Shown piece after piece: positions 34,900-60,778 of a stretch of 64,000 nt of DNA. Origin of the DNA: a virus (Duplodnaviria > Caudoviricetes); IMG/VR virus record IMGVR_UViG_3300029288_005873, positions 32,001-96,000 of that record; one strand, written 5' to 3'. The position numbers and the translations under genes are program-made. The notes beneath the pieces were generated by a model. The model saw only the letters and a program-made list of their open reading frames with translations. It did not search any database and was not told the origin of the DNA. Every line of letters begins with the position of its first letter. The first letter of the stretch is position 1.

Positions 34900-35428
34900 G
34901 ATCTATCTCTTTTTTAGCAAACCATTTGTCACCATGTCTTGTGACAATCATCTTCTCAGCAACCCAATCTGGAGGCTCACGTCGTGTCCACACCATCAGA
35001 TGACTCTTGTTTTCAATATAGTATTGCCTATATGTCGCTACCGAATCACCAGCGTGTATATTACCTGTTGCTTCAGCAAATGGCGTCAGACCTATGTCAG
35101 CAATTGCTGGACAAAATAAAGCAAGTTTAGAAATCATTCCATCTGCTTCTAGCTTGTGTGTCTTACCATATCTGTGTCGATATTCGGCACATAAACCATT
35201 AACATGTTTAAGCAACCAATGATAGTTAGATATGGAGGCGACCGTCCATTTCGCACATGGGTGGTGCCGCCACCCCAAACTGCTCCAGATCCCCTCTGGA
35301 ACTAATCCATTAACAGCATGAGCAACACACAATAATTGAACTGACTCCAGAATCATCTTTACCACATGTCGATCAACAAGTGATTTGGCGGAAACTACAG
35401 GATCAAAATCGACAACGAAAATGTTCAC
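34883..35428 (-). CDS. Pyrimidine-dimer DNA glycosylase (DenV-like)
   Basis: MNIF..D, DRHVVKMILES.QLL, HHPC..W, EY..RYGK.H, YRQYY. Confidence 0.85.
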   Translation of the reverse strand: MNIFVVDFDPVVSAKSLVDRHVVKMILESVQLLCVAHAVNGLVPEGIWSSLGWRHHPCAKWTVASISNYHWLLKHVNGLCAEYRHRYGKTHKLEADGMISKLALFCPAIADIGLTPFAEATGNIHAGDSVATYRQYYIENKSHLMVWTRREPPDWVAEKMIVTRHGDKWFAKKEIDHGQGT

Positions 35429-35440
35429 ATTATCTCCTTG

Positions 35441-35488
35441 TCCGCCCGCCTGGATTTGAACCAGGAGTCATTCGTTTTATTATAGGGC
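35441..35488 (-). pseudogene. tRNA remnant (T arm plus 3' acceptor strand)
   Basis: CCTGG-TTCAAAT-CCAGG-CGGGCGGA with no D or anticodon arm. Confidence 0.5.
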
Positions 35489-35976
35489 AAAGGTATTACC
35501 AATTGATTCTCACTTATGCCAATCCTTGCCAAACTTCTTATCCAGTTCCCTAAATTTTTGAGCCGTCTCCGGATCACAAGACGACCATTGATCACATTTA
35601 TTATAGTCTAAAATCGAATTGTTGCTAAGAGAGCATGTACCCATATTACTACGTCTATCGCCTTCCCAATATTTACACGATAAACATTCACCCCAACCCA
35701 GACTATGCCACATACCAGTTGTTGTTCTACAAAGTTCTCCGATAGCTTCTATATATGCCTCTTCTCTCTCAGCTGCTTCACGTTCATCTTTTTCCCAGGT
35801 CACAACAACTTTTCCACCACATCTTTCAAACTCTTCACGATGAGCGCCTTCATGCCCTTTGGGCAATTGGTACCGCATTGTGGCAGAATTGTCGCCAAAA
35901 TCATCAGCTATATAGAAGTGACTGTTACACTCGCCATCGACGTCCTGAGGTTTTCCAAACATGTCACACCTCCTAG

Positions 35977-36049
35977 TGAGCTGTATAGGAGTTGAACCTA
36001 TATTATTCCTCCTTGTAAAAGAGGTACCATTCCGTTAGGTGAACAGCCC
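35977..36049 (-). tRNA. tRNA-Val(UAC)
   Basis: CCTCT-TTTACAA-GGAGG. Confidence 0.85.
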
Positions 36050-36135
36050 CATATAAAACTACAGCGCCTGCCGATCCTATCCTAATCGGCAGGCATCTGC
36101 GGAGAAAAAGGAAGGATAGCCTACTTCCCGCATCG

Positions 36136-36207
36136 TACTCCCAAGGGGAATCGAACCCCTGTTTCCTGAGTGAAAGTCAGGTTGCCTGGCCGCTGGCAGA
36201 TGGGAGC
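36136..36207 (-). tRNA. tRNA-Glu(UUC)
   Basis: CCTGA-CTTTCAC-TCAGG. Confidence 0.9.
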
Positions 36208-36212
36208 AGAAG

Positions 36213-36329
36213 CCGCGCTTTGTTTATCCATGCGCGCGACGCACATGGTATGGGCGATTGGCGAGGATCGCCCTTCTGTCCGCCTTTCCAAAACCCTGGC
36301 GACAAGGGTCTCGCGCCTCTGGGGCGCGG
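36213..36329 (-). ncRNA. Candidate GC-rich multi-hairpin ncRNA
   Basis: Intergenic, four hairpins, directly 5' of tRNA-Glu. Confidence 0.45.
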
Positions 36330-36759
36330 AAGAGTCAATTAACCGAATCGTCCTTTATAACCTGTGCCTTTTCTTGGAATGCTTTCCTGATCGCAGCTTT
36401 CATAACATCCATGGCATCCTGGATACGCATTCTTCCAGAGGCTACCGATTCCCTCAGCTCCTTGGCAAGCTCGCCGAGGTTTGCGTCAAAAACAAATGTC
36501 TTACCCACGGCTTCTCCTTAATCCGAAAAGTTGTAAACATCTATAGCAAGACTTATATCATATATGATTTAAGTCTTGCTCTTTTCATCATTATTAAGAT
36601 TAAAAAGAGTCTCTATACCATTAAGAGCTTCGTTAACCAGGTTTGTACCTTCGCTATTATTAGATTTTATATATTCTTCTTTTAATCGCAACAATGTACG
36701 TTTACATTTTTCCAACGTATTAGTTTTATTGATCTTTTTATTTGCCATAGTCCCTCGCT

Positions 36760-37341
36760 TTAGGTTAACCTAAGAATACCAACAGGAGTTACCTGAAGGC
36801 TCTGCTTTATTCCATCCTTAAGAAATCTTTGGGCGGTTACGGCAATTTGTGCAGCTGTAAGGGCAAACATCGGAAGCTGTTCGCCGTCCTCACATGTTGC
36901 CTGTCCTTCTTTGCCCTCATCATCGAGAACAAAATATTCGTCCCAAACAACCCGACCAAATATTCCATCAGCAGATAGAGCTCCATGGAGGCATGGAATC
37001 TTGTGCTTCCGCACATAGTCTTGTATTGTCCTTCGAGCTTTTGCGTTATCTGTACAGTCTAGGACAAGTGCGGCACCGCCTAGGATGGCATCGGCGTTGT
37101 CTTCTGTAAGTCTATACGGAGTAGCATCAACCTTAGTCCCGAAAAGACCATTTAGAGCTTGCTGAATTGCCTTAGCCTTGTTTTGGCGCAAACCCATTTT
37201 GCTGTGGAATTGCGACTGGACGTTTTTAGTTTCAATATAATCATGGTCAACCACACGCGTAGAGTTTTTCCAGTTGCGCGCCAAAAGCGCCACATGTGAA
37301 CCGAGGGCGCCAACGCCAACAATAACTACCTTGCCTTCCAT
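36760..37341 (-). CDS. ThiF/E1-like adenylyltransferase
   Basis: GVGALG, DHD.IE..N..Q, K, DCTDN..AR; candidate catalytic Cys150 (ATCEDG). Confidence 0.9.
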   Translation of the reverse strand: MEGKVVIVGVGALGSHVALLARNWKNSTRVVDHDYIETKNVQSQFHSKMGLRQNKAKAIQQALNGLFGTKVDATPYRLTEDNADAILGGAALVLDCTDNAKARRTIQDYVRKHKIPCLHGALSADGIFGRVVWDEYFVLDDEGKEGQATCEDGEQLPMFALTAAQIAVTAQRFLKDGIKQSLQVTPVGILRLT

Positions 37342-37350
37342 GATTATTTA

Positions 37351-37617
37351 TTACTTTCTGCCAAAAGGCGTCTTTGGTCGCAGCATAATTCGTCCAGGAA
37401 GCTCAGCTGTTGCCGCGAACCTATCAACTACGAAGTCAGTGAAATCCACATTTTCATTAGCTGGAATTCCAGCCACATAGCCTGTGCGTACGGCCTCGAT
37501 TGCCATCTGCTTGATTACTTCGTCGGACGAATCATACGACACTGGGTCGTTTAGGTCCCCGTTATACCCACCAAATGTAATGTTCAGTCTAGCCATTCTA
37601 GCATTGATCTCTTCCAT
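37351..37617 (-). CDS. Ubiquitin-like (beta-grasp) protein, C-terminus KTPFG-RK
   Basis: 88 aa, beta-beta-alpha-beta-beta pattern, Gly near the C-terminus, lies between JAB and E1 genes. Confidence 0.7.
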   Translation of the reverse strand: MEEINARMARLNITFGGYNGDLNDPVSYDSSDEVIKQMAIEAVRTGYVAGIPANENVDFTDFVVDRFAATAELPGRIMLRPKTPFGRK

Positions 37618-37618
37618 G

Positions 37619-37993
37619 TTATTCCTCCTTTTGCGACAGCCTACGCAGATCGTGGATGTCGTCCGATTTTAAGAACGGTATTCTCCGGTAATCATGTTTT
37701 CCTGGACCGCTCCAAATAAATGTTGCCACTTCACTCATAGTCACAATAGGCCACACAAGCCTTCGTCCAAGTGCGGCTTCGCACGCCGCAAACGTCGTAA
37801 TATCAGTCCCAGATGGGCTTGCGGATCCATTCCAAGGATGCGTATGAGCAACTCCACCCAATCGTTCGCGATTTTCCCACAGGATATCCCACAGATTTCT
37901 AGAATCTGGTATCCAGCCTCCAGATCGACCTGGGGGGAGGTGCCAATGTATGACATTTCCATCCAAATCAAAAACTAAAGCTGTCTCAATCAT
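37619..37993 (-). CDS. JAB/MPN+ metallopeptidase
   Basis: N-terminal Glu (MIETAL) and HTHP......SGTD JAMM motif. Confidence 0.88.
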   Translation of the reverse strand: MIETALVFDLDGNVIHWHLPPGRSGGWIPDSRNLWDILWENRERLGGVAHTHPWNGSASPSGTDITTFAACEAALGRRLVWPIVTMSEVATFIWSGPGKHDYRRIPFLKSDDIHDLRRLSQKEE

Positions 37994-37994
37994 A

Positions 37995-38969
37995 TTAATC
38001 ATCCCAATCGTCATCGTCACGATCGCCATCTGCATGTCTGTAGACTACCAATTTACCTGTATTCATGGCCTCTCCCACAACAGCGGGAAGGCTTTCTAGC
38101 GTGAATCGTGCATCGCCTTTTACACCAGTGTGGTGATCGGTTAAACATATTCCTGAGTCGATTACACGTAATGTATCTTTGTCTACCACGCATTCAAGAC
38201 GACGGTTTCGGAATCTATACTGTACGACCATTTCCTTCTTATTACGCGATGGTCTAGCATCAAGTAGTTCGGCACCGCTTAGCCTTAGGGCAGCTTTTGC
38301 TGCCGCACCAAAATCCCTTTGTGCCAATGCGCGCCGTCCGGCTCCAGTTCCAGCATCTTTTAACGCTTGTCTGAACCGTTCTGCCTCAGCCCGTTTTTTC
38401 TCTTCTTCGAGTCTAATGCGTTCCATCTCTCGTTCGCGTTCCTCAGCAAGAATCCTCTGACGCGACACCCAACGAAAAGCTAAATCCAGAGCTGGGGTAA
38501 CTCCAATTACGTGGTCGACAGATCCTCTGCGATCCTGGTAAGCCATCTGTACAGCTGCCTCAGGACCTTGTGGAAACTCCTGCCTTACATATACCAGTCC
38601 TCCGCGTGTATTGGCGGCGACAGCTCTAGCAAATCTGTCAAGACCTGGCTCGACAACGAACACTGGAATGGTCTGGTCAACTAGTTTTTCTGGATCGGGA
38701 TCAATCCTTACATCATCAGGAATTAGCCTATCACCAACAACATATCCCTTGATAAGTTTATGACCATTCTCAAAATCTGGATTTGGATCAGCAGGACCCT
38801 CTAACTCTGCTTTACGACCTCCAGAGATTTTGAAAATGTACCATCCATGTTCATTGGGCAACTTTCCTTCAATCGTTAAAGTGCGCTCCCTATCATGAAT
38901 TTGTCTACCTCCGGTCCATGGAAGTGTTCTTTTGTCGCCTTCTAATGCCAATAAATCCTGCCAACCCAT
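37995..38969 (-). CDS. Multidomain protein with coiled coil and C-terminal divergent E2/UBC-like domain
   Basis: VIDSGICL (Cys275) followed by FTLESLPAVV resembles the UBC G.ICL...TL.S.L motif; gene context. Confidence 0.55.
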   Translation of the reverse strand: MGWQDLLALEGDKRTLPWTGGRQIHDRERTLTIEGKLPNEHGWYIFKISGGRKAELEGPADPNPDFENGHKLIKGYVVGDRLIPDDVRIDPDPEKLVDQTIPVFVVEPGLDRFARAVAANTRGGLVYVRQEFPQGPEAAVQMAYQDRRGSVDHVIGVTPALDLAFRWVSRQRILAEEREREMERIRLEEEKKRAEAERFRQALKDAGTGAGRRALAQRDFGAAAKAALRLSGAELLDARPSRNKKEMVVQYRFRNRRLECVVDKDTLRVIDSGICLTDHHTGVKGDARFTLESLPAVVGEAMNTGKLVVYRHADGDRDDDDWDD

Positions 38970-38987
38970 ATATTCTCCTAAACAGAT

Positions 38988-39254
38988 TCAACCTGGTAGA
39001 ACTAATTCATCATCTGACGCCACAACACATACAAGATCATATTTCGAAAGCTCACACTTGCTGCCATCGTCAAACACAACTTGGCGTACAGAATCTTTGT
39101 CACATATACTTGTAATTGTCTTGCTTTCTATGACTCTACCAAGCCATCCATATTGCGAATTACCAACAACATCTGTTTCCCAAGCAATCTTGGATCCAAT
39201 ATGTAATAGCAATACTTGTATCATTTTCCCTTGTTTTGGTGAACAATACCTCAT
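38988..39254 (-). CDS. Hypothetical protein
   Basis: AGGAG RBS before MRYCSPK. Confidence 0.5.
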   Translation of the reverse strand: MRYCSPKQGKMIQVLLLHIGSKIAWETDVVGNSQYGWLGRVIESKTITSICDKDSVRQVVFDDGSKCELSKYDLVCVVASDDELVLPG

Positions 39255-39278
39255 TTTTTCTCCTATGGATTTACACCC

Positions 39279-39345
39279 GAGTGCGACTCCGAATCGAACG
39301 AAGATAGTGGGTTCCCCCACTGTTTTGCCATTAAACTATCGCACA
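39279..39345 (-). ncRNA. Anticodon-less tRNA mimic (GGAA tetraloop)
   Basis: GTGCGA/TCGCAC acceptor, canonical D arm, AGTGGG-GGAA-CCCACT, CTTCG-TTCGATT-CGGAG. Confidence 0.75.
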
Positions 39346-39392
39346 CGTCCCGTTTTACTTGGTGGACAACGCCCAAATCATTGTTTCCTATT

Positions 39393-39680
39393 TCAACGTT
39401 CTATTACGAAAACCTTTCTACGACTTCGCCGTCCACTTCGAATAGAAACATTTGACTTAGGAACACCAAACCACTTTGCAACAAGCTTAATTGCCTCCTT
39501 GTTAGCTTTTCCATCCACGGCTGGAGATGAAACAAATACCTTCAGGCTACCATCATCCTGTTGTACAATCCCACTCCTTGAAGCTTTTGGAGAGACAAGG
39601 ACGCTAACCAGCTGTCCCACTTTTTTAACACAAGCGACAACCTTTTCTCCTTGTTTGATCACAAAACATGAATCAAACAT
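39393..39680 (-). CDS. DUF167/YggU family protein
   Basis: V.PKASRS...LKV.V.SPAVDGKAN..I...A...GVPKS.V.I.SG..SR.K. Confidence 0.88.
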   Translation of the reverse strand: MFDSCFVIKQGEKVVACVKKVGQLVSVLVSPKASRSGIVQQDDGSLKVFVSSPAVDGKANKEAIKLVAKWFGVPKSNVSIRSGRRSRRKVFVIER

Positions 39681-39939
39681 CGCCGCATCCCTTTCTCTTC
39701 TGTTTCTTACAAGCATTAATGAAGGCTGCCCTACCCTCGCCCATTGTATTTAGTAGGGCAGCCATTTTACCACCCCGCTTTACTGCTTCCTCCTTTGTTA
39801 TTTCCTTAATGTTGTTTCCTTTACACCAAGGACATACATCGACCCTGCTTGGATGTGTCCAATGAAGTTTTAGACAATCCTCACATAGGTATGGAGTTGT
39901 ACAAGGTTTATATCCCTCATCTCCCGTGCTCATGCCCAC
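39673..39939 (-). CDS. Small Zn-ribbon hypothetical protein
   Basis: CEDC...CPWC; overlaps the stop of the vWA gene. Confidence 0.5.
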   Translation of the reverse strand: MGMSTGDEGYKPCTTPYLCEDCLKLHWTHPSRVDVCPWCKGNNIKEITKEEAVKRGGKMAALLNTMGEGRAAFINACKKQKRKGCGDV

Positions 39940-41807
39940 ACCGGCTTCTTCAGCAGATCAGTCTTGAGAACCTCCTCAACCAGGGTAACCTTTGTAGCCT
40001 TACGTACTTGAGCCACAATTGGCGTTGTAGCAATCAGATTACGAATCACACGAGTTACAGCATATGGGTCGGCAAAAATGCCTTCCTCAATCGCAAAACA
40101 GGGGATTCCAAGTCTTACTGCGGCATCCCTAACAATCGAGCCACTGCCATACTGCCCGCTTACAACCCTCAGAAGACCGAAAGCCACTGGGTTAATTCCC
40201 GATTCCTGGACAGCCACCAGTAACTGAGCTAATCCAGTATCGAGCTCATCGCCCACAAACAACATAATAGCATCCTCACCATCCTTCGGTCTACGATGAG
40301 CAAGAGCGCGAACACCTTGCGCATAACTTGTTCCACCACCAGCAAAATGTCCCCTAAAAGCCGCCTCAATACCCTTGGCAGATGGATGTTTGATCTGTAC
40401 CTCACCACCCATCGTATTGAAGACGCTAACATGTAGCCTTTCAAGTGGAAATCCAACAAGGAGCTTGGACAAGTACATCTTCGCCTGTTCTATCGCACCC
40501 TGCATAGATCCGGACTTATCCACAATGGCATAAATCCTCAGGTCCTTGGTCACCTCTTCCATAGCTTTCTTGGTAGCTGTGTCGGCAGCATCCTGTAGAG
40601 CTTCCCTTGTCTCCTGAGACTTAACGCGTCGCGCAACATTCGCGGCACGCTGATTCTCAGCAGTCTCAGTTGCCCTCTTCCAGCGGTCGGATACATCCTT
40701 CACCTTAAGAAGCCCAAGCTCTTCTAAAGTTGGTGTAAGGATAATCATATCCGTATTGGAAACGGACCCCGCTTCAATAGCTGCTGCCATAACAGCTCTG
40801 GTAAGACCTACTTCGGACGGAAGCAAACCAACAATACGCTTATAGTTTGGCTTTGTCTCCACAATGCGTTCACAGATTTGCCTTTCGGTCAGACCCTTCC
40901 AACTTTCCGCTTTCTTGACCTCAGCGCCGATGGCAATCTCCCTCCGACCATCTTCGGCCTGCTTCTGCTTCCAGCGCAGGATTTCGAAGAACTTCGGCGA
41001 AGAAGGCTTGTATCCCACCCTTCGAGCAAGCTCCATTACGGATGTACGAAAACCTGCCTTGACAAGACCCTCAAGCATCTTAGGGTTGTCTTCACGATAA
41101 CGCAGATACTTCTCAACTACTTTGGTATACCTACCCTTAGCTGGAGTGCGGGCTGATTTGCCAAAACCAAGTTCGCGATTAATCGCAGCCACGCCTGGAA
41201 GAGCAAGGATATCGCCAATCCTAAGAAGCAACTTCGGATCAATGTCATCCTTGGCTCGAATGAGACACATGGCCTCACCGACGTCCCTGTAGTCCTCATC
41301 ATGGAAAAGGACCTTGCCATCTTCCATAATAGGTTCTCCGCATCTGCCCTGAACAAGCATGAAAGCCGCAAGCACAACCTTCATATCGCGATGTTCCTTA
41401 GAAAATGCCCAGGATGCCCACCTTGCGGCAAACTCATTATCCAGTTTATAAACATCAGCAACCTGCCTGTACATCCAAGTCGCAACCTCCGGAAAAAGAC
41501 CAGGCTTTCTGTACTCAGCAACCTGCCTAGCGCCATCCATAATAGCATTGCCGTTTAGGATGCCAAGGCGAATCCTTCTTTGCTTGTTGCCGACCTTCTC
41601 AAGCCTGTAAACGACCTTCTGACCGCCTTCCTCCTTCCAAGTTACGGGTTCCCAACGCACGCCGGTCTTGGCGTTCCTGTCCACAAATAGAGCACCTGGT
41701 CTACCATGATATAGATGATCAAGATAACCTGTAAGAGTCTGAATAATTTTTTCAGCTGGACCGAGAGCTTCAATACGTTGCCTATCTGCTTGCTGATTAA
41801 CTACCAT
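39930..41807 (-). CDS. vWA-domain protein with helical N-terminal region, divergent Ro60/TROVE-like
   Basis: MIDAS DKSGS, GGT, VGDE; DNEFAARWASWA, VMELARRVGYKP and ALQDAA..A resemble TROVE segments. Confidence 0.65.
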   Translation of the reverse strand: MVVNQQADRQRIEALGPAEKIIQTLTGYLDHLYHGRPGALFVDRNAKTGVRWEPVTWKEEGGQKVVYRLEKVGNKQRRIRLGILNGNAIMDGARQVAEYRKPGLFPEVATWMYRQVADVYKLDNEFAARWASWAFSKEHRDMKVVLAAFMLVQGRCGEPIMEDGKVLFHDEDYRDVGEAMCLIRAKDDIDPKLLLRIGDILALPGVAAINRELGFGKSARTPAKGRYTKVVEKYLRYREDNPKMLEGLVKAGFRTSVMELARRVGYKPSSPKFFEILRWKQKQAEDGRREIAIGAEVKKAESWKGLTERQICERIVETKPNYKRIVGLLPSEVGLTRAVMAAAIEAGSVSNTDMIILTPTLEELGLLKVKDVSDRWKRATETAENQRAANVARRVKSQETREALQDAADTATKKAMEEVTKDLRIYAIVDKSGSMQGAIEQAKMYLSKLLVGFPLERLHVSVFNTMGGEVQIKHPSAKGIEAAFRGHFAGGGTSYAQGVRALAHRRPKDGEDAIMLFVGDELDTGLAQLLVAVQESGINPVAFGLLRVVSGQYGSGSIVRDAAVRLGIPCFAIEEGIFADPYAVTRVIRNLIATTPIVAQVRKATKVTLVEEVLKTDLLKKPVWA

Positions 41808-41854
41808 TGTCGTTCTCCTTCATGTTTTTGAGCCATAGGCTCGAGTTTATTGGA

Positions 41855-42211
41855 TTAACCCCAACTACAATGCTCTTCTTCTATACTCTCCATACCGTCG
41901 TAGTCATGGATATACCAACCCTCACAATCTTCAAATGGAATATCCACTACCTTAAGATAGGAGAAATTGCTATTTGCTTCATTACCAAGCTGTTCCACTA
42001 CTTGTACCAAACGAAGATCGCAACGAAATTTCTTATCATTTTCAGAATAAATATAATAATTACACCCAAAACCAGCCTTTTTACGCCTAATAAAATCTTT
42101 GTTTTCGATATCACCCTCGTTCCCAACCGTCATTCCCAACGCTATACATGCTTCGACCGCTTTGTCCGAAAGACCAAACCCACCAAAACACTTATTAATC
42201 ACAACTTTCAT
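41855..42211 (-). CDS. Conserved phage protein
   Basis: MKVVINKCFGGFGLS...R.D..LV.VVE.LG...YDG.E. Confidence 0.7.
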   Translation of the reverse strand: MKVVINKCFGGFGLSDKAVEACIALGMTVGNEGDIENKDFIRRKKAGFGCNYYIYSENDKKFRCDLRLVQVVEQLGNEANSNFSYLKVVDIPFEDCEGWYIHDYDGMESIEEEHCSWG

Positions 42212-42519
42212 TGTCTTTCTCCTAACAGATTTTTCCACATCGCCAGCAAACACCACTACCACTTGGATAATATACAGCACTACATTTTGGGCATTCGCTG
42301 GGCTCACCCATTGGCACATATGGTCCATGACCCTGCCGAAGATTGAAAATAGCTGAAGCTTCCTCTGGCGTATGTGCGTCGAACTCGTAAGATGGAAATT
42401 CTGATTTCGAAATCAGACCGTGCGTTATTAGAATTAAAGAATTCTCTTCAGTAGTAAGAAGAAAACCGTCATCCTGTTTATACACTAGATATCTTGTTAA
42501 CACGTTTCTCCTTACAGAG

Positions 42520-42672
42520 CGCCCCAGGAAGGACTCGAACCTTCAATTGCGTGTGAGCTTGTACCGGATGGCTCCTAAATCGTAGAACTCCTTAGGAGCC
42601 GAGAAGAGAAGCTAATTGCTTTTGTATCGCAGCTCCAAATGCTGTTGCCTTTTCCAATTTGGCTACTGACCC
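42520..42672 (-). ncRNA. Expanded tRNA-like RNA, copy A
   Basis: D arm, loop ATTTGGA, ~80-nt insert, GAAGG-TTCGAGT-CCTTC T arm. Confidence 0.75.
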
Positions 42673-42682
42673 GAACTGATAA

Positions 42683-42710
42683 AACATATCCTCCTGAAGA
42701 AAATTGTCAA
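42683..42710 (-). promoter_or_regulatory. Sigma70-like promoter for RNA A
   Basis: TTGACA-N16-TATGTT about 10 nt upstream of the RNA. Confidence 0.5.
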
Positions 42711-43777
42711 GCCTCATTTTCGGGAAACAGTCCAAGCTTCACGTTCTGGAGGTTTTTCTGCTTAGCGTCGATCTCACGCTCCAATTTCCCTAAATTTCTT
42801 CAACTTCATTACTTAGCCTCACGAAGTTTATTTCCATGGTTTCCTTGTAGTTCATATCCGATTTCTTTTGCAGCAAATCGCAACGGATCCCAATGGTGAT
42901 GATTGTCACAATTGTCCCAAAGCGCTTGTATTCTTGCTGCTATAACTTCATTTGGCTCATCTATAAGTTCTACCGTAATGCGATATTTTCGCACTTCAAC
43001 TATGCCATTAAAACATGATGGGCAATCCTGTTTCATGTTTTTAATGGCATACTGATGAGGCTCAGAAAAAGTTTCCATTACAATAGGTTCAAAACGGATT
43101 GCTTTTCTCTTATCTTTACGCATCATATTTCCCTTACTGGTGAAGAAGACTAAGTGCTTGTTTTCGCTCAAGATTAAGAATTTGCCCTCCTTCAAAAAGG
43201 AGTATCCAACGAACTTTTCCCTTGTCCGAAAAACCAATCAAATCAGTACCGCACGCTACCTTCCAAAACCTCTCTCCAATATTCCGTCGTACTATTTTTC
43301 CTATTCCAGGAGTTATACCAATCCAATCTTTTCGACAATGGATTCCTTCACGCTTTGCAATGCGTACTTCCCAAGATTCCAACTTCATATTGTCCTCATA
43401 TCCTAAAAACTAGATTATATCTTGCCAGACTTTATTTGTTTTGATCTCTCCATGGCCATATTGAATATATCAGTTCTATCATCATCTGACAAATTACGTA
43501 GAATCTCGAACACACTATTATCAATGCCATCAAATGTTGGATCAAGTTCCAAATTTGTCCCCTTTAGCCCACTGGAGCGCACAACAATAACATCTCCATC
43601 ATATATATTACAGGCACATAGGTTCATCCACCTAACCATTGGTCCACCATGTGCGTCTTTTTCCTCAAATACGACGCCCATAGTTCCGGGGATAACATCA
43701 GCAGCATATAATCTCTTGGCTGCCACGACAACATCTCCTCTCCTAAGTTTGCTTATATCCATTATTTTCCTTTCTTG

Positions 43778-43852
43778 TCGGGATAGCAAGATTTGAACTT
43801 GCGACCTCTCGGGCCCAGGCCGAGCGCTCTAACCAGGCTGAGCTACATCCCG
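43778..43852 (-). tRNA. tRNA-Pro(UGG), C33
   Basis: CGGGATG/TATCCCG; CTCGG-CCTGGGC-CCGAG. Confidence 0.9.
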
Positions 43853-44832
43853 CCCTTACAAAACTGACTATTCCAATGGACAACCTTCTTCAGCTAGTTG
43901 CCTATCACATTCGTATGAACAACACCACTCTCCATCATAGCATGCAGAACCAACAATACATCCCTTCGCAAATTTTGCCTCAATACCGCAGTTTGCGCAT
44001 CGACCCCCTGGGTCGTCTGTCGGCCATGACGAGCGCTGCATCCATCTCCAGAATGAACGCATCTCGTCCTCCATAACCTCCGCATAACATTCTGCCTCAA
44101 AAGCTTTCTGTTCCTCTGTATATTCATGTTCAAACTGAATGCTGGTATCGGAGATTTCCCTACACATGTTGCCCCCTTTCCGCGAAAACGTCCGCGGATT
44201 TTTTTCGCTGCATCAACGCGCGATCCTTGTGACTGGGCTAGTTATGCTAGCTTTTATGTATGTTTCTCGGAACTGCGATGACGCAGCCCTGCTAACCAGG
44301 CCTTCCACATAAGTTCTATTGTTCTGTCATCCAGTGCGCAAAATGGCACTCCTGTTTGCGCATATAACCAACCGTCCATCCATGCTATAAAATCGCTGTC
44401 GTTTTTCCAATCATCCGTCATTTTTTATCCCAATACGATGCCAGCCACCACTTGGGCTCGCCGCAAAGATTTACACCATGATCTTCACAGATTTTCCTTA
44501 TTTTTAGTATAACTTTATAATCAATTTCCATATCATCAATTTCAACTACACCTTTTCTACCAGTTAATAATACCTTTGCCGCTAAGGCGTATATTGGACG
44601 ACCCATAGAATAATAATTTCCTACCACAAATGGAATTGGATTCCCACTTCTCCATTTCATCCTATAATGATACTGTGTATCTTCATCAATATTATCAGGT
44701 AATTTGTACCCATTAATTTTCATCCACCACTTATCAACATCCTCTCCCCAAGGGAGATTATAACCTTCCTCAAATAACCAACCATAAAACAAAACACCAT
44801 CAGCGGATATTCCCATTACTTTTTCTCCTTTG

Positions 44833-44904
44833 TGGAGCCGTCCCGAGGTGCGCGGGAACTCTAAATTCTTCAGATTTATGTGCTACTGATTACACCACGG
44901 CTCC
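44833..44904 (-). tRNA. tRNA-Phe(GAA), atypical T-loop CGCACCT
   Basis: GGAGCCG/CGGCTCC; TAAAT-CTGAAGA-ATTTA. Confidence 0.7.
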
Positions 44905-44992
44905 TTATTGGTACTATAATTTTACACTATAGTACCACAGATAATAATCTGTAACAATTGCAACTATTCTATTGTCAACGAACATACTACAT

Positions 44993-45063
44993 TGACCCTA
45001 AGGGGAATTGAACCCCTGTTTCATGACTGAGAATCACGCGGCCTACCATTAGCCGATAGGGTC
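44993..45063 (-). tRNA. tRNA-Glu(CUC)
   Basis: GACCCTA/TAGGGTC; anticodon loop TTCTCAG. Confidence 0.9.
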
Positions 45064-45655
45064 TTTTGTTTCGTTTGGACTACTTTTCCAATCTGGCATT
45101 CTAGCTATAGCCGAATCTCTTGTAGGACGAAATGCCCATATCCAACTAGCTGGCCATTCTTCGTCCTCACAAATTATTGGCTTCTCCGAAAAAGCTGTAA
45201 TTACCACAAAAGCTTCTTTTGTGTCCACTAATGCAAAGAACACTTTGTTGATCGCAAGATCAACTATTACAATATTAGCGCGCTTTCCAATACTATGACG
45301 TGGATCGTTTTTATACCACATTTTATTTACCATGCTTTTCTTTGTCACATTCTTGTTCCGCTGCTGCGTGACAAATTGGACACCAGCCGCGAAAACATTT
45401 CACGGCATTCGAGGTGTATGGCCAACCGATACGACTAGCATCTCTCATAAGCTCCTCGCAAAGGTCTATCCTACCTTGCCAATAATCTGCCGATCTACCA
45501 ACTCGCTCACGATTGCGCTTCAAATTTTTGGCTTCCCAAAGCAAATACGCAAAGTGCTTAGTAAGACCTTTTGTATATGGATGGTTAAGCCAATCCACCG
45601 TTTGTTGCTTGTCTCCAAAAAATCTTGCGAAAATGCCCATCCTTTTTCTCCTTTA

Positions 45656-45728
45656 TTCCGGAGCTAGGATTCGAACCTAGATCAGCAACATCCAAGGTGT
45701 TGTGCCCTTGCCATTGGACCACTCCGGA
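45656..45728 (-). tRNA. tRNA-Gln(UUG), C33
   Basis: TCCGGAG/CTCCGGA; CAACA-CCTTGGA-TGTTG. Confidence 0.88.
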
Positions 45729-45730
45729 GT

Positions 45731-45870
45731 GGTGCTGTCTCTCCAGCTGTCACGCCTCATACGTTGAGTTGCGCCTCCCATCAGTGTTCTCCAACACGTG
45801 AGATAACAGATTGCTGGCGTTCACAACCGAATGACCGCCCCAATTTGTTGGGCGTGTACATTTCACTACA
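45731..45870 (-). ncRNA. Candidate structured ncRNA abutting tRNA-Gln
   Basis: Intergenic, several hairpins including two with purine-rich GGAGA loops. Confidence 0.45.
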
Positions 45871-45969
45871 AAAAAGATTATCTACAACAGGTTTAACTAG
45901 TCTAGATATATGTCATTAAAATAATCAACCAAATGTAATAATTTTAACAATCATGTTATCAAAATTCTA

Positions 45970-46347
45970 TTATGTTACCTCGTATTTGGATCCAACACAT
46001 ACTGTCACTGATCGATTTGGGCATTCATGCGAAGGAATAAGGAATTTCCTACCATCGTCGGTGACTATAAATACCAGATCCACTTTTGTCGAATCAAAAA
46101 ATTTAACCGTATTTCCTGTTTTGTTTCCGCCCTTTGTACGCATTTCGACTTGATAACTACTGCCGCTCCTCTTGTATCGAGATGTACGAACTTGTACTTT
46201 CTTGAGAGTGCCGTCGTCTATTACTAAGTCATACTCTTGACTATCAGTAAGTGGTACGCATACAGTACAACCTTGTACAGAAAACCATCCGATAGCAATC
46301 CCGAGACCAACATCTCCCTGCTTTTTGCTATTTCTTTGTTTTAGCAT
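45970..46347 (-). mobile_element. PD-(D/E)XK homing endonuclease
   Basis: QGDVG, P..D..YDLVID, KVQVRT. Confidence 0.8.
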
Positions 46348-46537
46348 AACGTTATTAAATCGCAGCCTGTGCCCACAGATACACCATCAGTGCCGTAAAA
46401 GCAACAATCGCCAAAATACCAATACCGATACGCACATATGTGTACACTGGAGCCCTTAGCTGTGGAACTTCACAACATTCTTGTTCATTCTTCTTCTCAG
46501 CACATTTGCCAGAACATTCACACATTATCGCCACCTT

Positions 46538-47356
46538 TCAGATGTCAAGCCCAATATCATCGGGGGTTTTGATTCCGACAACTTTCTTTATACTCTCCTT
46601 CCACTTAACTTTTGGTGCTAGAACGGGATCTGACATAACTCTATCATAAAGTCTAATAATTGCTGCGTCGCTTTGAGATTCTTCCAAAGCAAGAATCATA
46701 TCACTCGTATGCTGATCCATATAACCACCGGCATTTATTAAACAGCGCTGACTTAGCTTATTAGCCTTCCCAATCCAAATTGCGTCAGTTACATATGGCA
46801 CTACAGTCTTAACTAGCCTAATAACATTATCGTGATTGGTATCCAGCATTGGCTCCATTGATACGCTGGTCTGCCAGCCGTTATCATGCGCCCACATGAG
46901 AGAATATAGTCTTTCAGCAAATGTGGGAGCCTTTGGCTCCCAAAAACGCAACGTACTAGGATCCATTGATCCAATTGTGAAACGAAATAAGATATTTCCC
47001 TTTACCCAAGGCATATCTCCACACAATTGTTTAATAATATACGGACTCGGCTTAGATACTACAAGAACTTTATTTCCAGCCTCCAAGAGCTTCCATAACA
47101 TCTCACGACAGTACTTAAAATTACTGGTCGTAATATCGTGAGATGTTGGAAACATTACTGTTCCTTGTCTCTTTCCAAACCTTTTTGCTATCTCCCTTGG
47201 TCGTTCTATTTCCCAACTCTTTGCTGTTTCCTTGCCAAACCTAATAGCTTGTGCCTTTGCATAACAATAAAGACAACCGTTGGTACAACCATCCATACAA
47301 TTTGCAGAACTAGCAGCCCATTCTCTTGTACCAGTTGGAGTTTTCTTACTACTCAT
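46538..47356 (-). CDS. Radical SAM protein
   Basis: GCTNGCLYCYA; SVSMEP. Confidence 0.85.
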   Translation of the reverse strand: MSSKKTPTGTREWAASSANCMDGCTNGCLYCYAKAQAIRFGKETAKSWEIERPREIAKRFGKRQGTVMFPTSHDITTSNFKYCREMLWKLLEAGNKVLVVSKPSPYIIKQLCGDMPWVKGNILFRFTIGSMDPSTLRFWEPKAPTFAERLYSLMWAHDNGWQTSVSMEPMLDTNHDNVIRLVKTVVPYVTDAIWIGKANKLSQRCLINAGGYMDQHTSDMILALEESQSDAAIIRLYDRVMSDPVLAPKVKWKESIKKVVGIKTPDDIGLDI

Positions 47357-47862
47357 CTATTTATCTTCTCTCAGTGAATTAGCTAAATTAGTCGCATATG
47401 TAAACAGTGGACCTTTACAAATTTGACGAGGATAAGGATACGTATTAATATTGCCAATTAGGTTTTCGATAACTCCAATTGGCAAATGATTTTGTATAAG
47501 ATCATATAGAAACAAAACCAACGCATCGTTACACCAAGATGTGTTTTCTTTGCACGACTTCTCTAACTCCCCAATTTTCTTCTTTTTTGCCATATTAGTC
47601 TCTTTTTCTCAACCGTTCTGCCAGGTCTTTGGCATAGTTGGCTAGCCAGCCTTTTTGTGAAACGGCTTGGCTGCTTTTCAACTTCGCCCATCATATCCTC
47701 AACCATGCCTATGGTCATATGGTCGCGCATAAGCTGATATAGGAAAGACACAAGCGGATCATCGGACCCAACATTACCACTTCGCTCACGCAACGCATCC
47801 ATACGATATGCTGTCTCCGTCAAAGAAACATGGCATTCCCTAAGCTCGTTATCTTGCGCCAT
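47357..47862 (-). CDS. Two paralogous small proteins; the upstream one is frameshifted in an A-run near 47652-47656
   Basis: Shared D.LV.FLY.L...H..IG motif; removing one A restores FTKGWLANYAKDLAERL, matching KGPLFTYATNLANSL. Confidence 0.6.
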
Positions 47863-47874
47863 TCTATTCCCCTT

Positions 47875-47908
47875 AAAAACAAAAACGCCCAAGCTTTTAA
47901 CTTGGGCG
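47875..47908 (-). terminator. Intrinsic terminator of an attenuator
   Basis: CGCCCAAG-TTAAAAG-CTTGGGCG followed by TTTTTGTTTTT. Confidence 0.8.
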
Positions 47909-47938
47909 CCGGTTTTGCTGTTTATTTTCCGCTTTGGT

Positions 47939-48103
47939 TTATGCGCCCAAGTCTCCTATTAAGTTACTACCAAAGCGGACGTTTCCATTAAAAGAATAAG
48001 AACGCTCGGGCAGAATACTGGATGGCTGATTCCACACACACGTATCCAGTAGCCCATTTTGGGCTTTCTGGAAAGCTACTTTGTGTGTTAATGAACGCAT
48101 CAT
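47939..48103 (-). CDS. 54-aa putative leader peptide
   Basis: GGAG RBS; MMRSLTHKVAFQKAQ...GSNLIGDLGA*; last codons form the antiterminator strand. Confidence 0.55.
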   Translation of the reverse strand: MMRSLTHKVAFQKAQNGLLDTCVWNQPSSILPERSYSFNGNVRFGSNLIGDLGA

Positions 48104-48175
48104 TTTTTATATCTCCAAAAACAGCACCAGAGGGTTTAGTTGCTTTAATGGCATACTAGACCTAGTCTGGCGCGG

Positions 48176-48299
48176 CGGGGAGTTTCCGATTCGAACGGAA
48201 AGCTTGTGGGCTTCACAGGAGTTGGTCGTTTACGACCGAGAAATGAAGCAGGTTATTCTGGTTTGGCTCCAGTTGGCACCCCAGGTGCCAAAACTCCCC
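48176..48299 (-). ncRNA. Expanded tRNA-like RNA, copy D
   Basis: GGGGAGT/ACTCCCC acceptor, TTCCG-TTCGAAT-CGGAA T arm, GCTTCA...CTCGGTCG-TAAA-CGACC...TGAAGC insert. Confidence 0.75.
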
Positions 48300-48336
48300 A
48301 AAATTAGGAATGCGCGAGCGAGGAAGTCTTTTGTGT

Positions 48337-48408
48337 TAGCGGATGAGGGGATTGAACCCTCAACCTTCTGATTATAGGTCAGACGCTCTACCATTGAGCT
48401 GATTCGCT
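48337..48408 (-). tRNA. tRNA-Ile(UAU), C33
   Basis: TCTGA-CCTATAA-TCAGA; A73. Confidence 0.85.
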
Positions 48409-48437
48409 TGTGGACTTCTTTCCTTTGCGCATACCCG

Positions 48438-48574
48438 TCTGCCCGCTGGGATTCGAACCCAGATGATTTTCGCGTGTAGGTTCAGTATATTAGCTCCAAA
48501 GGAGCCGAGTAAAGGAACTAGATGCTTTTTGAAAGCTCCAAATGCTTTTGCCGCTCCAATTCGGCCACGGGCAG
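48438..48574 (-). ncRNA. Expanded tRNA-like RNA, copy B
   Basis: CTGCCCG/CGGGCAG acceptor, AAAGC-ATTTGGA-GCTTT, insert, CTGGG-TTCGAAT-CCCAG. Confidence 0.8.
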
Positions 48575-48645
48575 ATAAAAAACAAACTAGCCTAATCTAT
48601 CAATTTTACAGCATAATAATTAAACTAGTTAAGGAGGAACTTAGT

Positions 48646-49161
48646 ATGCTAATTTGTCGTAACTGTAACCAACCTTTTCCCTACAGCATTATCGTAAATG
48701 GGAAAGTGCGAAACCTACAACACAGAAAATTCTGTCTCAAATGCTCTACTTTCGGGAAGCATAATACCTGCGCAGATATAAAACAAAAACTCTCTGATCA
48801 GAAAATTTGCGCTAAGTATCACAATCTTTTTAGCAAAGACGATTTCTACAAACGGGCAAACGGTAGTCCTATTTCATATTGTAGAGAATGCGCCCGAAAA
48901 TGGTTCCTTGATTGGCAACATTCCATCAAAAAACAGTGCGTTGATTACAAAGGAGGCTGCTGTATCTTATGTGGATACAACAAATACTTCGGCTCGCTGG
49001 AATTTCACCACTTGGATAGGAGTCAAAAAGATTTCACCATATCAAGTCACAGAAGTCTTTCTTTCGACCAACTCAAAGAAGAACTAGATAAATGTATCCT
49101 TCTTTGTGCCAACTGTCATCGTGAGGTACATGGTGGAATTACTGAATTCCCAGCTGATTAG
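48646..49161 (+). mobile_element. HNH homing endonuclease (opposite strand)
   Basis: AAGGAGG RBS; YKGG.C..CGY...LEFHH.D..K...ELDKC.LLCANCHRE.H. Confidence 0.9.
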
Positions 49162-49263
49162 TATTCCGTTTATGCTTACAAATTTCTACAGAACCAAACT
49201 ACTATTTTCACAAAACTACAGACTTTACATATTACAATTCGGCTACAATTTAATCTTCTTCCG

Positions 49264-49400
49264 TGCTCCCGGATGGACTCGAACCATCATTTGCTTGTTC
49301 GCTTGTTCCGGGTGACTCCTAAAAGTCGAGAGGTCAAGCTGGGTTGCTTTTTGTGATCAGATTTAATGTCTGTTGGCTTTTCCAGTTTGCCCACGGGAGC
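49264..49400 (-). ncRNA. Expanded tRNA-like RNA, copy C
   Basis: GCTCCCG/CGGGAGC acceptor, CAGA-CATTAAA-TCTG, insert, GATGG-TTCGAGT-CCATC. Confidence 0.8.
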
Positions 49401-49420
49401 AAGTTCTTCCTCTCAGAAGA

Positions 49421-49487
49421 ACAATATTATCCAAAATCCAACATGTCGACTTTTTATGTCATTATCTAGACAACATGTTGGATTTTG
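49421..49487 (-). promoter_or_regulatory. Promoter overlapped by a 15-bp inverted repeat
   Basis: TCGACA-N17-TATTGT; CAAAATCCAACATGT (49432-49446) and ACATGTTGGATTTTG (49473-49487). Confidence 0.5.
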
Positions 49488-49665
49488 TAACATTTTTCCT
49501 ATAACGCTATCTTACTCTACCGAACCAAACTTCTCCTTGAGCTTCTTGTACCCAAGCTTAACGAAATACACCACAACTGGACCTCCAACAAGACCGATTC
49601 CAAGACCAACCAAAAATGTCGTCACTTTTTTCTCCTCCACATTGAAATGGCGGTTACCGCCGCAG

Positions 49666-56351: not shown

Positions 56352-60778
<4,427 letters not shown>

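What the first reader, a model, noticed from the sequence alone, without database searches (positions are those of the whole stretch)
36760..38969. Phage-encoded four-gene ubiquitin-like cassette (E2-like, JAB, Ubl, E1)
The four genes are separated by only 1-9 nt. E1 has the nucleotide-binding motifs and a candidate Cys150. JAB has an intact HxH..SxxD motif. The 88-aa protein ends KTPFG-RK, so JAB removal of RK would expose Gly86. No ThiG/MoaE or other sulfur-transfer gene is nearby, which favours protein conjugation. Described bacterial Ubl systems are mostly host anti-phage systems, so a virus-borne set is unusual.
Basis: partly seen in the sequence, partly recalled or inferred. Interest (0 to 1): 0.85.

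Follow-up and report, generated by a model that had tools for sequence, protein, structure and literature searches.

The report
Huge-phage ubiquitin-like tagging module
A 442-kb phage carries a small ubiquitin-like protein with its activating enzyme and trimming protease, but the supposed E2 is a new cysteine-bearing protein. These four genes are part of a five-gene module that is common in huge phages, present in some bacterial chromosomes, and absent from every paper I could search.

Summary
Four co-oriented minus-strand genes lie at 36760-38969, separated by 1, 1 and 9 nt.

- **Confirmed identities (three).** One gene is a minimal ThiF-type E1 of 193 aa whose only universally conserved Cys is C150. 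One is a JAB/JAMM peptidase with intact E..HxH..S..D. One is an 88-aa beta-grasp protein whose last conserved residue is Gly86 (invariant RPKTPFG), followed in relatives by unconserved tails of 0-70 aa.
- **The 'E2-like' call is not confirmed.** The 324-aa protein models as two OB barrels, a long helix and a small alpha/beta domain carrying the universally conserved Cys275. No sequence or fold search returned an E2. A control-checked complex prediction does dock the Ubl on that domain, and residues 276-279, next to Cys275, are in the predicted interface.
- **The cassette is part of a five-gene module.** The order vWA protein, p324, JAB, Ubl, E1 is kept in 59-62 of 62 huge-phage loci, in 10 MAG contigs, and in compact form on high-GC bacterial contigs of up to 3.2 Mb. 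It usually lies beside tRNA arrays.
- **Most likely function.** A Ubl activation and transfer system with a non-UBC cysteine carrier. The target is unknown.

This scan has already met the module on other DNA. I found no paper describing it.

The parts
36760..37341 (-). Minimal E1-like adenylyltransferase, 193 aa, ThiF/MoeB type. It has no Zn-binding CxxC pairs, no rhodanese domain and no UFD.
   Evidence: Pfam ThiF scores 82.2 bits against a cut-off of 28.1. The best solved relatives are MoeB 1jw9 (E 5e-8), ThiF and Uba4. GxGxxGS, D32, K55 and D95-C-T-D-N are conserved. C150, in the motif GQATCE, is kept in 53 viral and 4 bacterial homologues, while C96 and C117 are not. The position aligned to MoeB's NLQRQ arginine is Ser or Ala.
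37351..37617 (-). Ubiquitin-like protein, 88 aa, a new sequence family. Gly86 is the last conserved residue, followed here by an RK tail.
37619..37993 (-). JAB/JAMM metallopeptidase, 124 aa from the ATG at 37993. The open frame reaches back to 38035.
   Evidence: Pfam Prok-JAB scores E 1e-4 and 22.5 bits, just under the 25-bit cut-off. E17, H64xH66, S74 and D77 (numbering of the 138-aa frame) are conserved in 50 viral and 4 bacterial homologues.
37995..38969 (-). p324, 324 aa: two N-terminal OB-type barrels (about 5-63 and 70-142), a long charged helix (159-207) and a conserved C-terminal alpha/beta domain (209-311) carrying Cys275 in the motif D-x-G-I-C-L. It is the candidate Ubl carrier and does not show a UBC fold.
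39930..41807 (-). vWA protein, 625 aa, the fifth conserved member of the module. About 420 residues are helical, followed by a vWA domain with a MIDAS motif.
   Evidence: It lies upstream of p324 on the same strand in 60/62 viral loci, 10/10 MAG loci and 5 bacterial contigs. The vWA domain (420-547) is confirmed by profile. Pfam TROVE is not detected in any of 54 members. hhalign against canonical Ro60 gives 12% probability, E 0.0025, and is colinear.
39393..39716 (-). YggU/DUF167 gene inserted between the vWA gene and p324. It is an accessory gene, not part of the conserved module.
   Evidence: Pfam DUF167 E 5e-24. Among the 62 viral loci only the closest relative, L006, has it.

Best explanation
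The four genes are the downstream part of a conserved five-gene module: vWA protein, p324, JAB, Ubl, E1. The module most likely activates a small ubiquitin-like protein and hands it on covalently.

Shown by sequence and comparison:
- a ThiF-type adenylating enzyme with one universally conserved Cys (C150);
- a JAMM peptidase with a complete metal site;
- a beta-grasp-type protein whose invariant C-terminal Gly86 is followed by disposable tails;
- a fourth protein whose only universally conserved Cys (C275) sits in its most conserved domain.

Inferred steps:
1. JAB removes the residues after Gly86 (RK here), and probably also reverses conjugates.
2. E1 adenylates Gly86 and takes the Ubl onto Cys150.
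3. The Ubl docks on the C-terminal domain of p324, which brings its tail close to Cys275. Cys275 accepts the Ubl as a thioester, so p324 acts as an E2 analogue without a recognisable UBC fold.
4. The two OB barrels of p324 and the vWA/MIDAS protein choose the acceptor. Because the module lies beside tRNA and tRNA-like genes, the acceptor is probably part of an RNA-protein particle. It is unknown.
For: **Conservation and linkage.**
- p324 has 1007 relatives among 90%-identity clusters and 425 clusters at 50% identity.
- Gene order and strand are kept in 59-62 of 62 IMG/VR loci at 40-80% identity, with only HNH endonucleases and unrelated ORFs inserted.
- A search seeded independently with the Ubl recovered 10 MAG contigs, all carrying vWA, p324, Ubl and E1; JAB was found in 9 of the 10.

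**Catalytic residues survive deep divergence.** In bacterial copies E1 C150, p324 C275, the JAB E..HxH..S..D motif and the Ubl ending RPKVPFG are all kept, while other cysteines are lost.

**Ubl precursor pattern.** Gly86 is invariant in 120/120 relatives. Tails are 0-70 aa and unconserved, and 13/120 relatives end at the Gly. In L072, the one locus where no JAB was detected between p324 and the Ubl, the Ubl ends ...RPKTPFG followed by the stop codon.

**Fold.** The Ubl model has pLDDT 86.8 and beta-beta-alpha-beta-beta topology.

**Docking.** The model supports binding but does not show it.
- Score 0.67, best of 3 controls 0.00. The three runs scored 0.67, 0.68 and 0.00.
- This mark was reached by 58 of 80 solved complexes and 2 of 110 mismatched pairs. 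Those counts hold only roughly here, because my own alignments were used.
- The runs agree in at least 0% of contacts, and the partner's pLDDT is at least 72.
- The interface joins Ubl strands 10-21, residues 63-81 and tail 83-86 to p324 residues 207-213, 229-232, 266-269, 276-279 and 283-306. That puts residues next to C275 in the interface; which p324 residues the tail touches was not listed.

**No sulfur partner.** No rhodanese was found in the genome. The only ATP_bind_3 PP-loop gene is TilS, and no conserved sulfur-acceptor gene occurs in 73 loci.
Against: - No search places p324 among E2/UBC proteins. The thioester at C275 is therefore pure inference.
- By sequence the E1 is closest to the sulfur-carrier activators ThiF, MoeB and Uba4. 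It also lacks the arginine aligned to MoeB's NLQRQ motif. I take that arginine to be the conserved ATP-contacting Arg73 of MoeB; this is from memory and was not checked.
- JAB-trimmed Ubls also occur in sulfur pathways (QbsE/QbsD and CysO/Mec+; established knowledge, not tested here).
- The constant neighbourhood of tRNA arrays would also fit a Urm1/TtuB-type tRNA-thiolation role.
- The phage has an IscS/DndA-like cysteine desulfurase about 62 kb away.
- One of the three complex runs scored 0.00.
- There is no experimental data on any member of the module.
Confidence: 0.5

Rival explanations
1. E2-independent tagging of the SAMP/UbaA or TtuB/TtuC type. The E1 alone both activates the Ubl and passes it to lysines. 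In this reading p324 is a main substrate, or an adaptor that holds the Ubl on an RNA-protein particle, and not a thioester carrier. JAB matures the Ubl and removes it from targets.
For: The E1 is a minimal ThiF-type enzyme with a conserved crossover-type Cys150. No E2 fold was found in p324. The predicted Ubl-p324 interface fits a stable partner as well as it fits a carrier.
Against: An adaptor or substrate would not need a Cys that is invariant from phages to bacteria, in a D-x-G-I-C-L loop whose neighbouring residues 276-279 lie in the predicted Ubl interface.
Confidence: 0.2
2. Sulfur carrier. The Ubl is converted to a C-terminal thiocarboxylate and donates sulfur, for example to thiolate the phage's many tRNAs or tRNA-like RNAs. 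p324 would bind the RNA through its OB barrels and relay sulfur through Cys275.
For: - The best E1 matches are ThiF, MoeB and Uba4.
- The module sits in or beside tRNA arrays: 54 of 60 viral loci have tRNAs, averaging 13.7 per 20 kb, and the bacterial locus L089 has 17.
- The N-terminal half of p324 resembles S1/CSD/IF1-type barrels.
- A cysteine desulfurase is encoded elsewhere in the genome.
Against: - The Ubl ends in a single Gly after Phe. It lacks the Gly-Gly that I recall as usual for ThiS, MoaD, TtuB, Urm1 and SAMP (from memory, not tested).
- The genome has no rhodanese.
- The only ATP_bind_3 PP-loop gene is TilS, and the weak tRNA_Me_trans hit is NadE. Only Pfam PF01171 and PF03054 were searched.
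- No acceptor enzyme is conserved in 73 loci.
Confidence: 0.15
3. Counter-defence. The phage uses JAB to strip host Ubl-type marks (as in CBASS type II, Bil or Bub), or tags host defence proteins with its own Ubl to disable them.
For: Described bacterial Ubl conjugation systems act in antiphage immunity (PMC11601603). The E1 weakly matches the E1 part of PADLOC E1-E2 (Cap2) models.
Against: The same compact module lies on high-GC bacterial contigs of up to 3.2 Mb, with the GC content of its flanks and with its own tRNA genes. It always brings its own Ubl, E1, p324 and vWA partner. Only the E1 matches any PADLOC model.
Confidence: 0.07

Closest known systems
Bacterial Ubl-conjugation operons: type II CBASS (Cap2 E2-E1 fusion with Cap3 JAB), Bil (BilA-D) and Bub (PMC11601603, PMC11601596, PMC10097602)
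   Same: They combine an E1-like adenylating enzyme, a peptidase that exposes or removes the modifier, and a modifier with a reactive C-terminus. The window's E1 matches the E1 part of PADLOC Cap2 models at E 7e-13.
   Different: Those systems use a recognisable UBC-type E2 and are cellular antiphage systems. Here the Cys protein shows no E2 fold or sequence signal, none of JAB, Ubl or p324 matches any PADLOC model, a vWA protein is an obligate neighbour, and most copies are in huge phages.
E2-independent prokaryotic Ubl systems: archaeal SAMP1-3/UbaA/HvJAMM1 and Thermus TtuB/TtuC with a JAMM peptidase (PMC4443979, and my own knowledge)
   Same: A small ThiF-type E1, a beta-grasp modifier, a JAMM peptidase and a link to tRNA biology.
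   Different: As I recall, those modifiers end in Gly-Gly and double as sulfur donors to PP-loop thiolases (NcsA, TtuA). Here the end is Pro-Phe-Gly and no thiolase or rhodanese was found. There is also an extra conserved Cys protein that is predicted to hold the Ubl.
PRTRC cassette (Prok-E2_D/PRTRC_B, PRTRC_A JAB, PRTRC_ThiF)
   Same: It is an E1 plus JAB set on a mobile element. The same phage carries such a set at G000 positions 111,130-113,397, i.e. L120 3130-5398.
   Different: The window's E1 scores only 38.9 bits against the PRTRC_ThiF cut-off of 144.75. p324 has no similarity to the phage's own Prok-E2_D protein (hhalign probability 0.2%).
JAB-processed sulfur carriers: QbsE/QbsD/QbsC and CysO/Mec+/MoeZ (my own knowledge; class discussed in PMC1779556)
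   Same: A Ubl with extra C-terminal residues that a JAB peptidase removes before E1 activation.
   Different: Those sit in biosynthetic operons with rhodanese-fused E1s and sulfur-acceptor enzymes. Neither is present here.
Ro60 (Rsr)-Y RNA particles, including phage Ro60 of Thermus phage phiLo (PMC12135203)
   Same: A helical-repeat plus vWA protein encoded directly downstream of small structured or tRNA-like RNA genes.
   Different: Pfam TROVE is not detected in any of 54 members. The profile-profile match to canonical Ro60 is only 12% probability. No Ro60 locus in the papers I read is reported with Ubl, E1 or JAB genes.

Membership tests
E1-like / ThiF-MoeB adenylyltransferase superfamily | Rossmann-type nucleotide-binding fold with GxGxxG, and a family HMM score above threshold | tested here: met
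   Pfam ThiF scores 82.2 bits against a cut-off of 28.1. G9-x-G11-A-L-G14-S is conserved.
E1-like / ThiF-MoeB adenylyltransferase superfamily | Mg/ATP-site residues: the Asp of the DxxD(N) motif, the Lys equivalent to MoeB K86, and the Arg of the NLQRQ motif | tested here: inconclusive
   D95-C-T-D98-N aligns with the DCTDN motif of MoeB, and K55 is kept. The Arg position is Ser43 here and Ser/Ala in homologues. Activity cannot be judged from sequence.
E1-like / ThiF-MoeB adenylyltransferase superfamily | Cysteine after the adenylation core (crossover loop) able to take the Ubl | tested here: met
   C150 is conserved in 53/53 viral and 4/4 bacterial homologues. That it is the structural equivalent of ThiF C184 is inferred from its spacing of 52 residues after D98. 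It was not aligned.
JAB/JAMM (MPN+) metallopeptidases | The catalytic motif E ... HxH ... S ... D | tested here: met
   E17, H64, H66, S74 and D77 are conserved. The Pfam Prok-JAB score is 22.5 bits, just below the 25-bit cut-off.
Ubiquitin-like beta-grasp modifiers | Beta-grasp fold | tested here: inconclusive
Ubiquitin-like beta-grasp modifiers | A conserved C-terminal Gly that ends the conserved region, with dispensable residues after it | tested here: met
   G86 is invariant in 120/120 relatives. Tails are 0-70 aa and unconserved. The same holds in bacterial copies.
E2 / UBC-like conjugating enzymes (including Prok-E2_A to E) | UBC fold, or a match to an E2 family model | tested here: inconclusive
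E2 / UBC-like conjugating enzymes (including Prok-E2_A to E) | An invariant catalytic Cys in a loop after the beta-meander | tested here: met
   C275 is invariant in 116 sequences and in 5 bacterial copies. It lies 4 residues after the fourth strand.
Ubl sulfur-carrier pathways (ThiS/ThiF, MoaD/MoeB, TtuB/TtuC, Urm1/Uba4) | A linked sulfur-acceptor or sulfur-relay enzyme (ThiG, MoaE, a PP-loop thiolase or rhodanese) | tested here: not met
   Only five families recur across 73 loci. The phage genome has no rhodanese, its ATP_bind_3 hit is TilS, and its weak tRNA_Me_trans hit is NadE. A host-supplied partner cannot be excluded.
Ro60/TROVE proteins (for the linked vWA gene) | A TROVE helical-repeat ring followed by a vWA domain | tested here: inconclusive
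   The vWA domain with MIDAS is confirmed. TROVE is not detected in 54 members. hhalign against 16 canonical Ro60 sequences gives 12% probability and E 0.0025, and is colinear over 276 columns. No structure was predicted here.

The most novel reading that the evidence does not exclude
The module is a previously undescribed RNA-linked ubiquitin-like system. An OB-fold protein with no detectable E2 ancestry carries the Ubl on Cys275. Together with a Ro60-like vWA protein and tRNA-shaped RNAs, it tags a component of an RNA-protein particle. The tagged component could conceivably be the RNA 3' end itself, because E1 chemistry parallels aminoacyl-adenylate formation. The effect would be to control tRNA or RNA surveillance during huge-phage infection and in some myxobacteria.
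Probability: 0.2. Interest if true: 0.9.

Novelty: new variant of a known kind. Interest (0 to 1): 0.75.

Why it matters
Prokaryotic ubiquitin-like conjugation has so far been described as cellular antiphage machinery built on recognisable E1 and E2 enzymes. This module would add three things:
- A widespread set carried mainly by viruses. p324 alone has 425 clusters at 50% identity, mostly on contigs of 100-600 kb.
- A Ubl family and a candidate carrier protein that current family libraries do not recognise.
- A fixed genetic link between Ubl machinery, a vWA protein and tRNA arrays, which points to a connection between protein tagging and RNA biology.

All five proteins are small, and the predictions are directly testable in vitro.

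Tried and rejected
- **Sequence libraries.** Pfam, PHROGs, PADLOC, NCBIfam and PDB sequence searches gave nothing for p324 or the Ubl.
- **Atlas.** The ESM Atlas feature search for p324 gave no usable hit. The Atlas shape search gave only TM 0.19-0.29 rows, such as DsbC_N, YbjN and PepSY-like.
- **Fold searches.** Foldseek against PDB gave no match at E 0.001 or better for either model. No E2/UBC chain was listed by VIA, wide or second-look. The C-terminal domain was never searched alone, so an E2-like fold is not excluded.
- **Fusions.** A search for longer fused forms of p324 found none, which is weak evidence.
- **Nucleotide search.** megablast of the region against GenBank phages found nothing. 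Only Virus Rctr197k carries p324 and the Ubl at protein level, with the genes spread over about 8 kb.
- **Genome scan.** A1 was used instead.
- **Rfam.** On 35000-50000 it returned only ordinary tRNAs.
- **Extra partners.** A fifth or sixth conserved protein partner was rejected. The next recurrent ORF families are alternate-frame artefacts inside the vWA gene and HNH homing endonucleases.
- **The 110-aa ORF at 38988-39320.** It is not conserved in any related locus.
- **Literature.** Five searches found no description of this gene combination. The nearest is a preprint noting, without connecting them, that Nidhogg archaeal viruses encode both Ro60 and ThiF-like proteins (10.1101/2021.07.29.454249).
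Full report
**1. What is there**

On the minus strand of the window lie four tightly packed ORFs:
- a 324-aa protein, here called p324, at 38969..37995;
- a JAB-type protein whose open frame runs 38035..37619;
- an 88-aa protein at 37617..37351;
- a 193-aa protein at 37341..36760.

Relatives support this, because they align only from that residue onward. The gaps are then 1, 1 and 9 nt. A strong AAGGAGG sits 7 nt before the Ubl start.

The window is bases 32001-96000 of a 441,904-bp virus record that CheckV rates 100% complete. It carries 15 tRNA genes, and also genes for GroEL, a helicase and a methyltransferase.

**2. The three recognisable proteins**

*E1.*
- The 193-aa protein is a ThiF-family adenylyltransferase: Pfam 82.2 bits against a cut-off of 28.1.
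- Its closest solved relatives are MoeB, ThiF and Uba4.
- It is a bare adenylation domain with no rhodanese and no CxxC zinc site.
- Across 53 viral and 4 bacterial homologues, GxGxxGS, D32, K55, DCTDN and a single cysteine, C150 (GQATCE), are conserved. C96 and C117 are not.
- One expected ATP-site arginine (the R of MoeB's NLQRQ) is Ser or Ala throughout the family.

*JAB.* The protein scores just under Pfam's Prok-JAB threshold, but it has the full E..HxH..S..D motif, conserved in all homologues.

*Ubl.*
- The 88-aa protein matches no family library and no PDB sequence.
- Its 255 relatives share an invariant RPKTPFG. Gly86 is the last conserved position. After it come 0-70 residues with no conservation, and 13 of 120 relatives end at the Gly.
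- AlphaFold gives a confident beta-beta-alpha-beta-beta model (pLDDT 86.8).
- Taken together this is a new Ubl family with the classic precursor signature.
- L072 is the one related locus where no JAB was detected between p324 and the Ubl. There the Ubl ends exactly at the Gly. This is a single case, but it fits JAB as the tail-trimming enzyme.

**3. The supposed E2**

- p324 has a large family: 1007 hits among 90% clusters and 425 clusters at 50% identity. It matches no known domain, and nor do 116 of its relatives.
- Its model is very confident (pLDDT 93.9). It shows two N-terminal OB-type barrels, a 49-residue charged helix, and a C-terminal alpha/beta domain.
- The phage's own Prok-E2_D protein, from a second cassette described in section 7, has no profile similarity to p324 (0.2%).
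- I therefore do not file p324 as an E2.
- The C-terminal domain is nevertheless the most conserved part of the protein. G273 and C275 are invariant in 116 sequences. C275 is the only cysteine that survives in the distant bacterial copies.
- A complex prediction of full-length p324 with Ubl(1-86) reached ipSAE 0.67, against 0.00 for the best of 3 controls. The three runs scored 0.67, 0.68 and 0.00. This mark was reached by 58 of 80 solved complexes and 2 of 110 mismatched pairs, counts that hold only roughly because my own alignments were used. The runs agree in at least 0% of contacts, and the partner's pLDDT is at least 72.
- The predicted interface uses only the C-terminal domain of p324. 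It includes residues 276-279, next to C275, and the Ubl tail residues 83-86. The output does not say which p324 residues the tail touches. This supports binding but does not show it.

**4. The real unit is five genes**

- Sixty-two IMG/VR loci encode a p324 relative, mostly on contigs of 100-620 kb.
- JAB, Ubl and E1 follow p324 on the same strand and in the same order in 62, 61 and 59 of them.
- A 625-aa vWA protein precedes p324 in 60 of them.
- Clustering every plus-strand ORF of 73 loci gave exactly these five families, in 69-73 loci each. The next families are alternate-frame artefacts and HNH endonucleases.
- A scan of 185,579 species genomes seeded with the Ubl returned 10 MAG contigs. 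All carry vWA, p324, Ubl and E1, and JAB was found in 9 of the 10.
- I sampled 401 genomes of the phylum of one such MAG, titled Sorangium sp. Ten have p324, and five of these hits lie on contigs of 0.14-3.2 Mb.
- Four of those five loci carry the whole module compactly; in the fifth no JAB or Ubl was detected. For L089, the only locus profiled, the module's GC (66-71%) matches its flanks. tRNA genes lie just upstream in three loci.
- The module is therefore mainly viral but not exclusively so.
- The vWA domain with MIDAS is certain. Earlier notes of this scan call the protein Ro60-like. In my hands TROVE is undetectable in 54 members, and hhalign against 16 canonical Ro60 sequences gives a colinear match at only 12% probability. 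I leave that question open.

**5. Context**

- tRNA genes surround the module. Fifty-four of 60 viral loci have them, with a mean of 13.7 per 20 kb.
- Forty of 60 viral loci have same-strand tRNAs within 4 kb upstream of the vWA gene.
- The bacterial locus L089 has 17 tRNAs.
- Shared descent explains part of this association. Its recurrence in bacterial chromosomes suggests a functional tie to tRNA or RNA biology.

**6. Mechanism and rivals**

The best reading (confidence 0.5) is a Ubl activation and transfer system: JAB trims the tail, E1 adenylates Gly86 and probably holds the Ubl on C150, and p324 takes it on C275 as a non-UBC carrier. The OB barrels of p324 and the vWA protein would choose a still unknown acceptor.

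The rivals are:
- E2-independent SAMP/TtuB-like tagging, with p324 as adaptor or substrate (0.2);
- a sulfur-carrier role in RNA thiolation (0.15);
- counter-defence (0.07).

The evidence on the sulfur reading is as follows.
- Against it:
  - The Ubl ends Pro-Phe-Gly.
  - The genome has no rhodanese.
  - The PP-loop hits are TilS and NadE.
  - No acceptor enzyme occurs in 73 loci.
- In its favour:
  - The E1 is ThiF/MoeB-like.
  - tRNA arrays neighbour the module.
  - A distant IscS/DndA-like desulfurase is encoded in the genome.

**7. Comparison with known systems, and novelty**

- The module is not a member of CBASS type II, Bil, Bub, 6A-MBL or PRTRC. Only its E1 touches any of their models, and well below threshold.
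- The same phage carries a separate PRTRC-like set of Prok-E2_D, JAB and ThiF at about 111-113 kb. This serves as an internal control, showing that a known E2 type is detectable in this genome.
- Five literature searches found no description of the vWA-p324-JAB-Ubl-E1 combination.
- This scan has already reported the same module from at least eight other genomes. It is new to the literature I could search, but not new to the scan.
- I rate it a new variant of a known kind, namely prokaryotic Ubl systems. It has an unrecognised Ubl family, a candidate non-UBC carrier, and a fixed link to a vWA protein and tRNA arrays.

Noticed in passing
Outside the window: G000:C1 about 111,130-113,397 (locus L120 3130-5398, minus strand): The same phage carries a second, separate Ubl-type cassette: Prok-E2_D (PRTRC_B-like, 222 aa), JAB (PRTRC_A-like, 261 aa) and PRTRC_ThiF-like E1 (276 aa). 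Small unassigned ORFs of 187, 82 and 89 aa lie upstream, and one of them could be its Ubl.
   Followed up: partly
window 25369-26379 (-): This ORF matches phrog_1211, '2-aminooxy adenylosuccinate synthetase', at E 6e-75. I recall this as the PurZ-like family; if so, the phage may replace adenine with 2-aminoadenine in its DNA.
   Followed up: no
window 36760-37341 (-), residue 43: Throughout this E1 family the arginine of the MoeB/ThiF NLQRQ motif is replaced by Ser or Ala, while the rest of the ATP/Mg site is kept. R22 is conserved and might compensate.
   Followed up: partly
window 38988-39320 (-): This 110-aa ORF between YggU and p324 is not conserved in any of 72 related loci, so it is probably not a gene. 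Earlier notes place a tRNA-like element with a GNRA tetraloop at 39279-39345, and a terminator-like hairpin was flagged at 39321-39306.
   Followed up: no
window 39393-39716 (-): A YggU/DUF167 gene is inserted between the vWA gene and p324. Among the 62 viral loci only the closest relative, L006, has it.
   Followed up: partly
G000:C1 7094-8161 and 218280-218849; window 49666-50568: The phage encodes an IscS/DndA-like cysteine desulfurase, a TilS N-domain lysidine synthetase and a NadE-like NAD synthase. A NAPRTase lies next to the second Ubl cassette (L120 971-2317).
   Followed up: partly
L089 13824-15209 (bacterial contig of 3.2 Mb): An SPFH/Band-7 gene lies just beyond the 14-gene tRNA array that follows the chromosomal copy of the module.
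   Followed up: no
window 23839-25344 (-) and 57162-58841 (-): One ORF is an HNH endonuclease fused to a dehydrogenase-like domain (501 aa). The other is a full-length GroEL-type chaperonin (E 2.5e-162).
   Followed up: no
L073 8001-8611: In one MAG contig the Ubl gene precedes JAB, so the order of these two genes is swapped. This is the only order change seen among 72 related loci.
   Followed up: no
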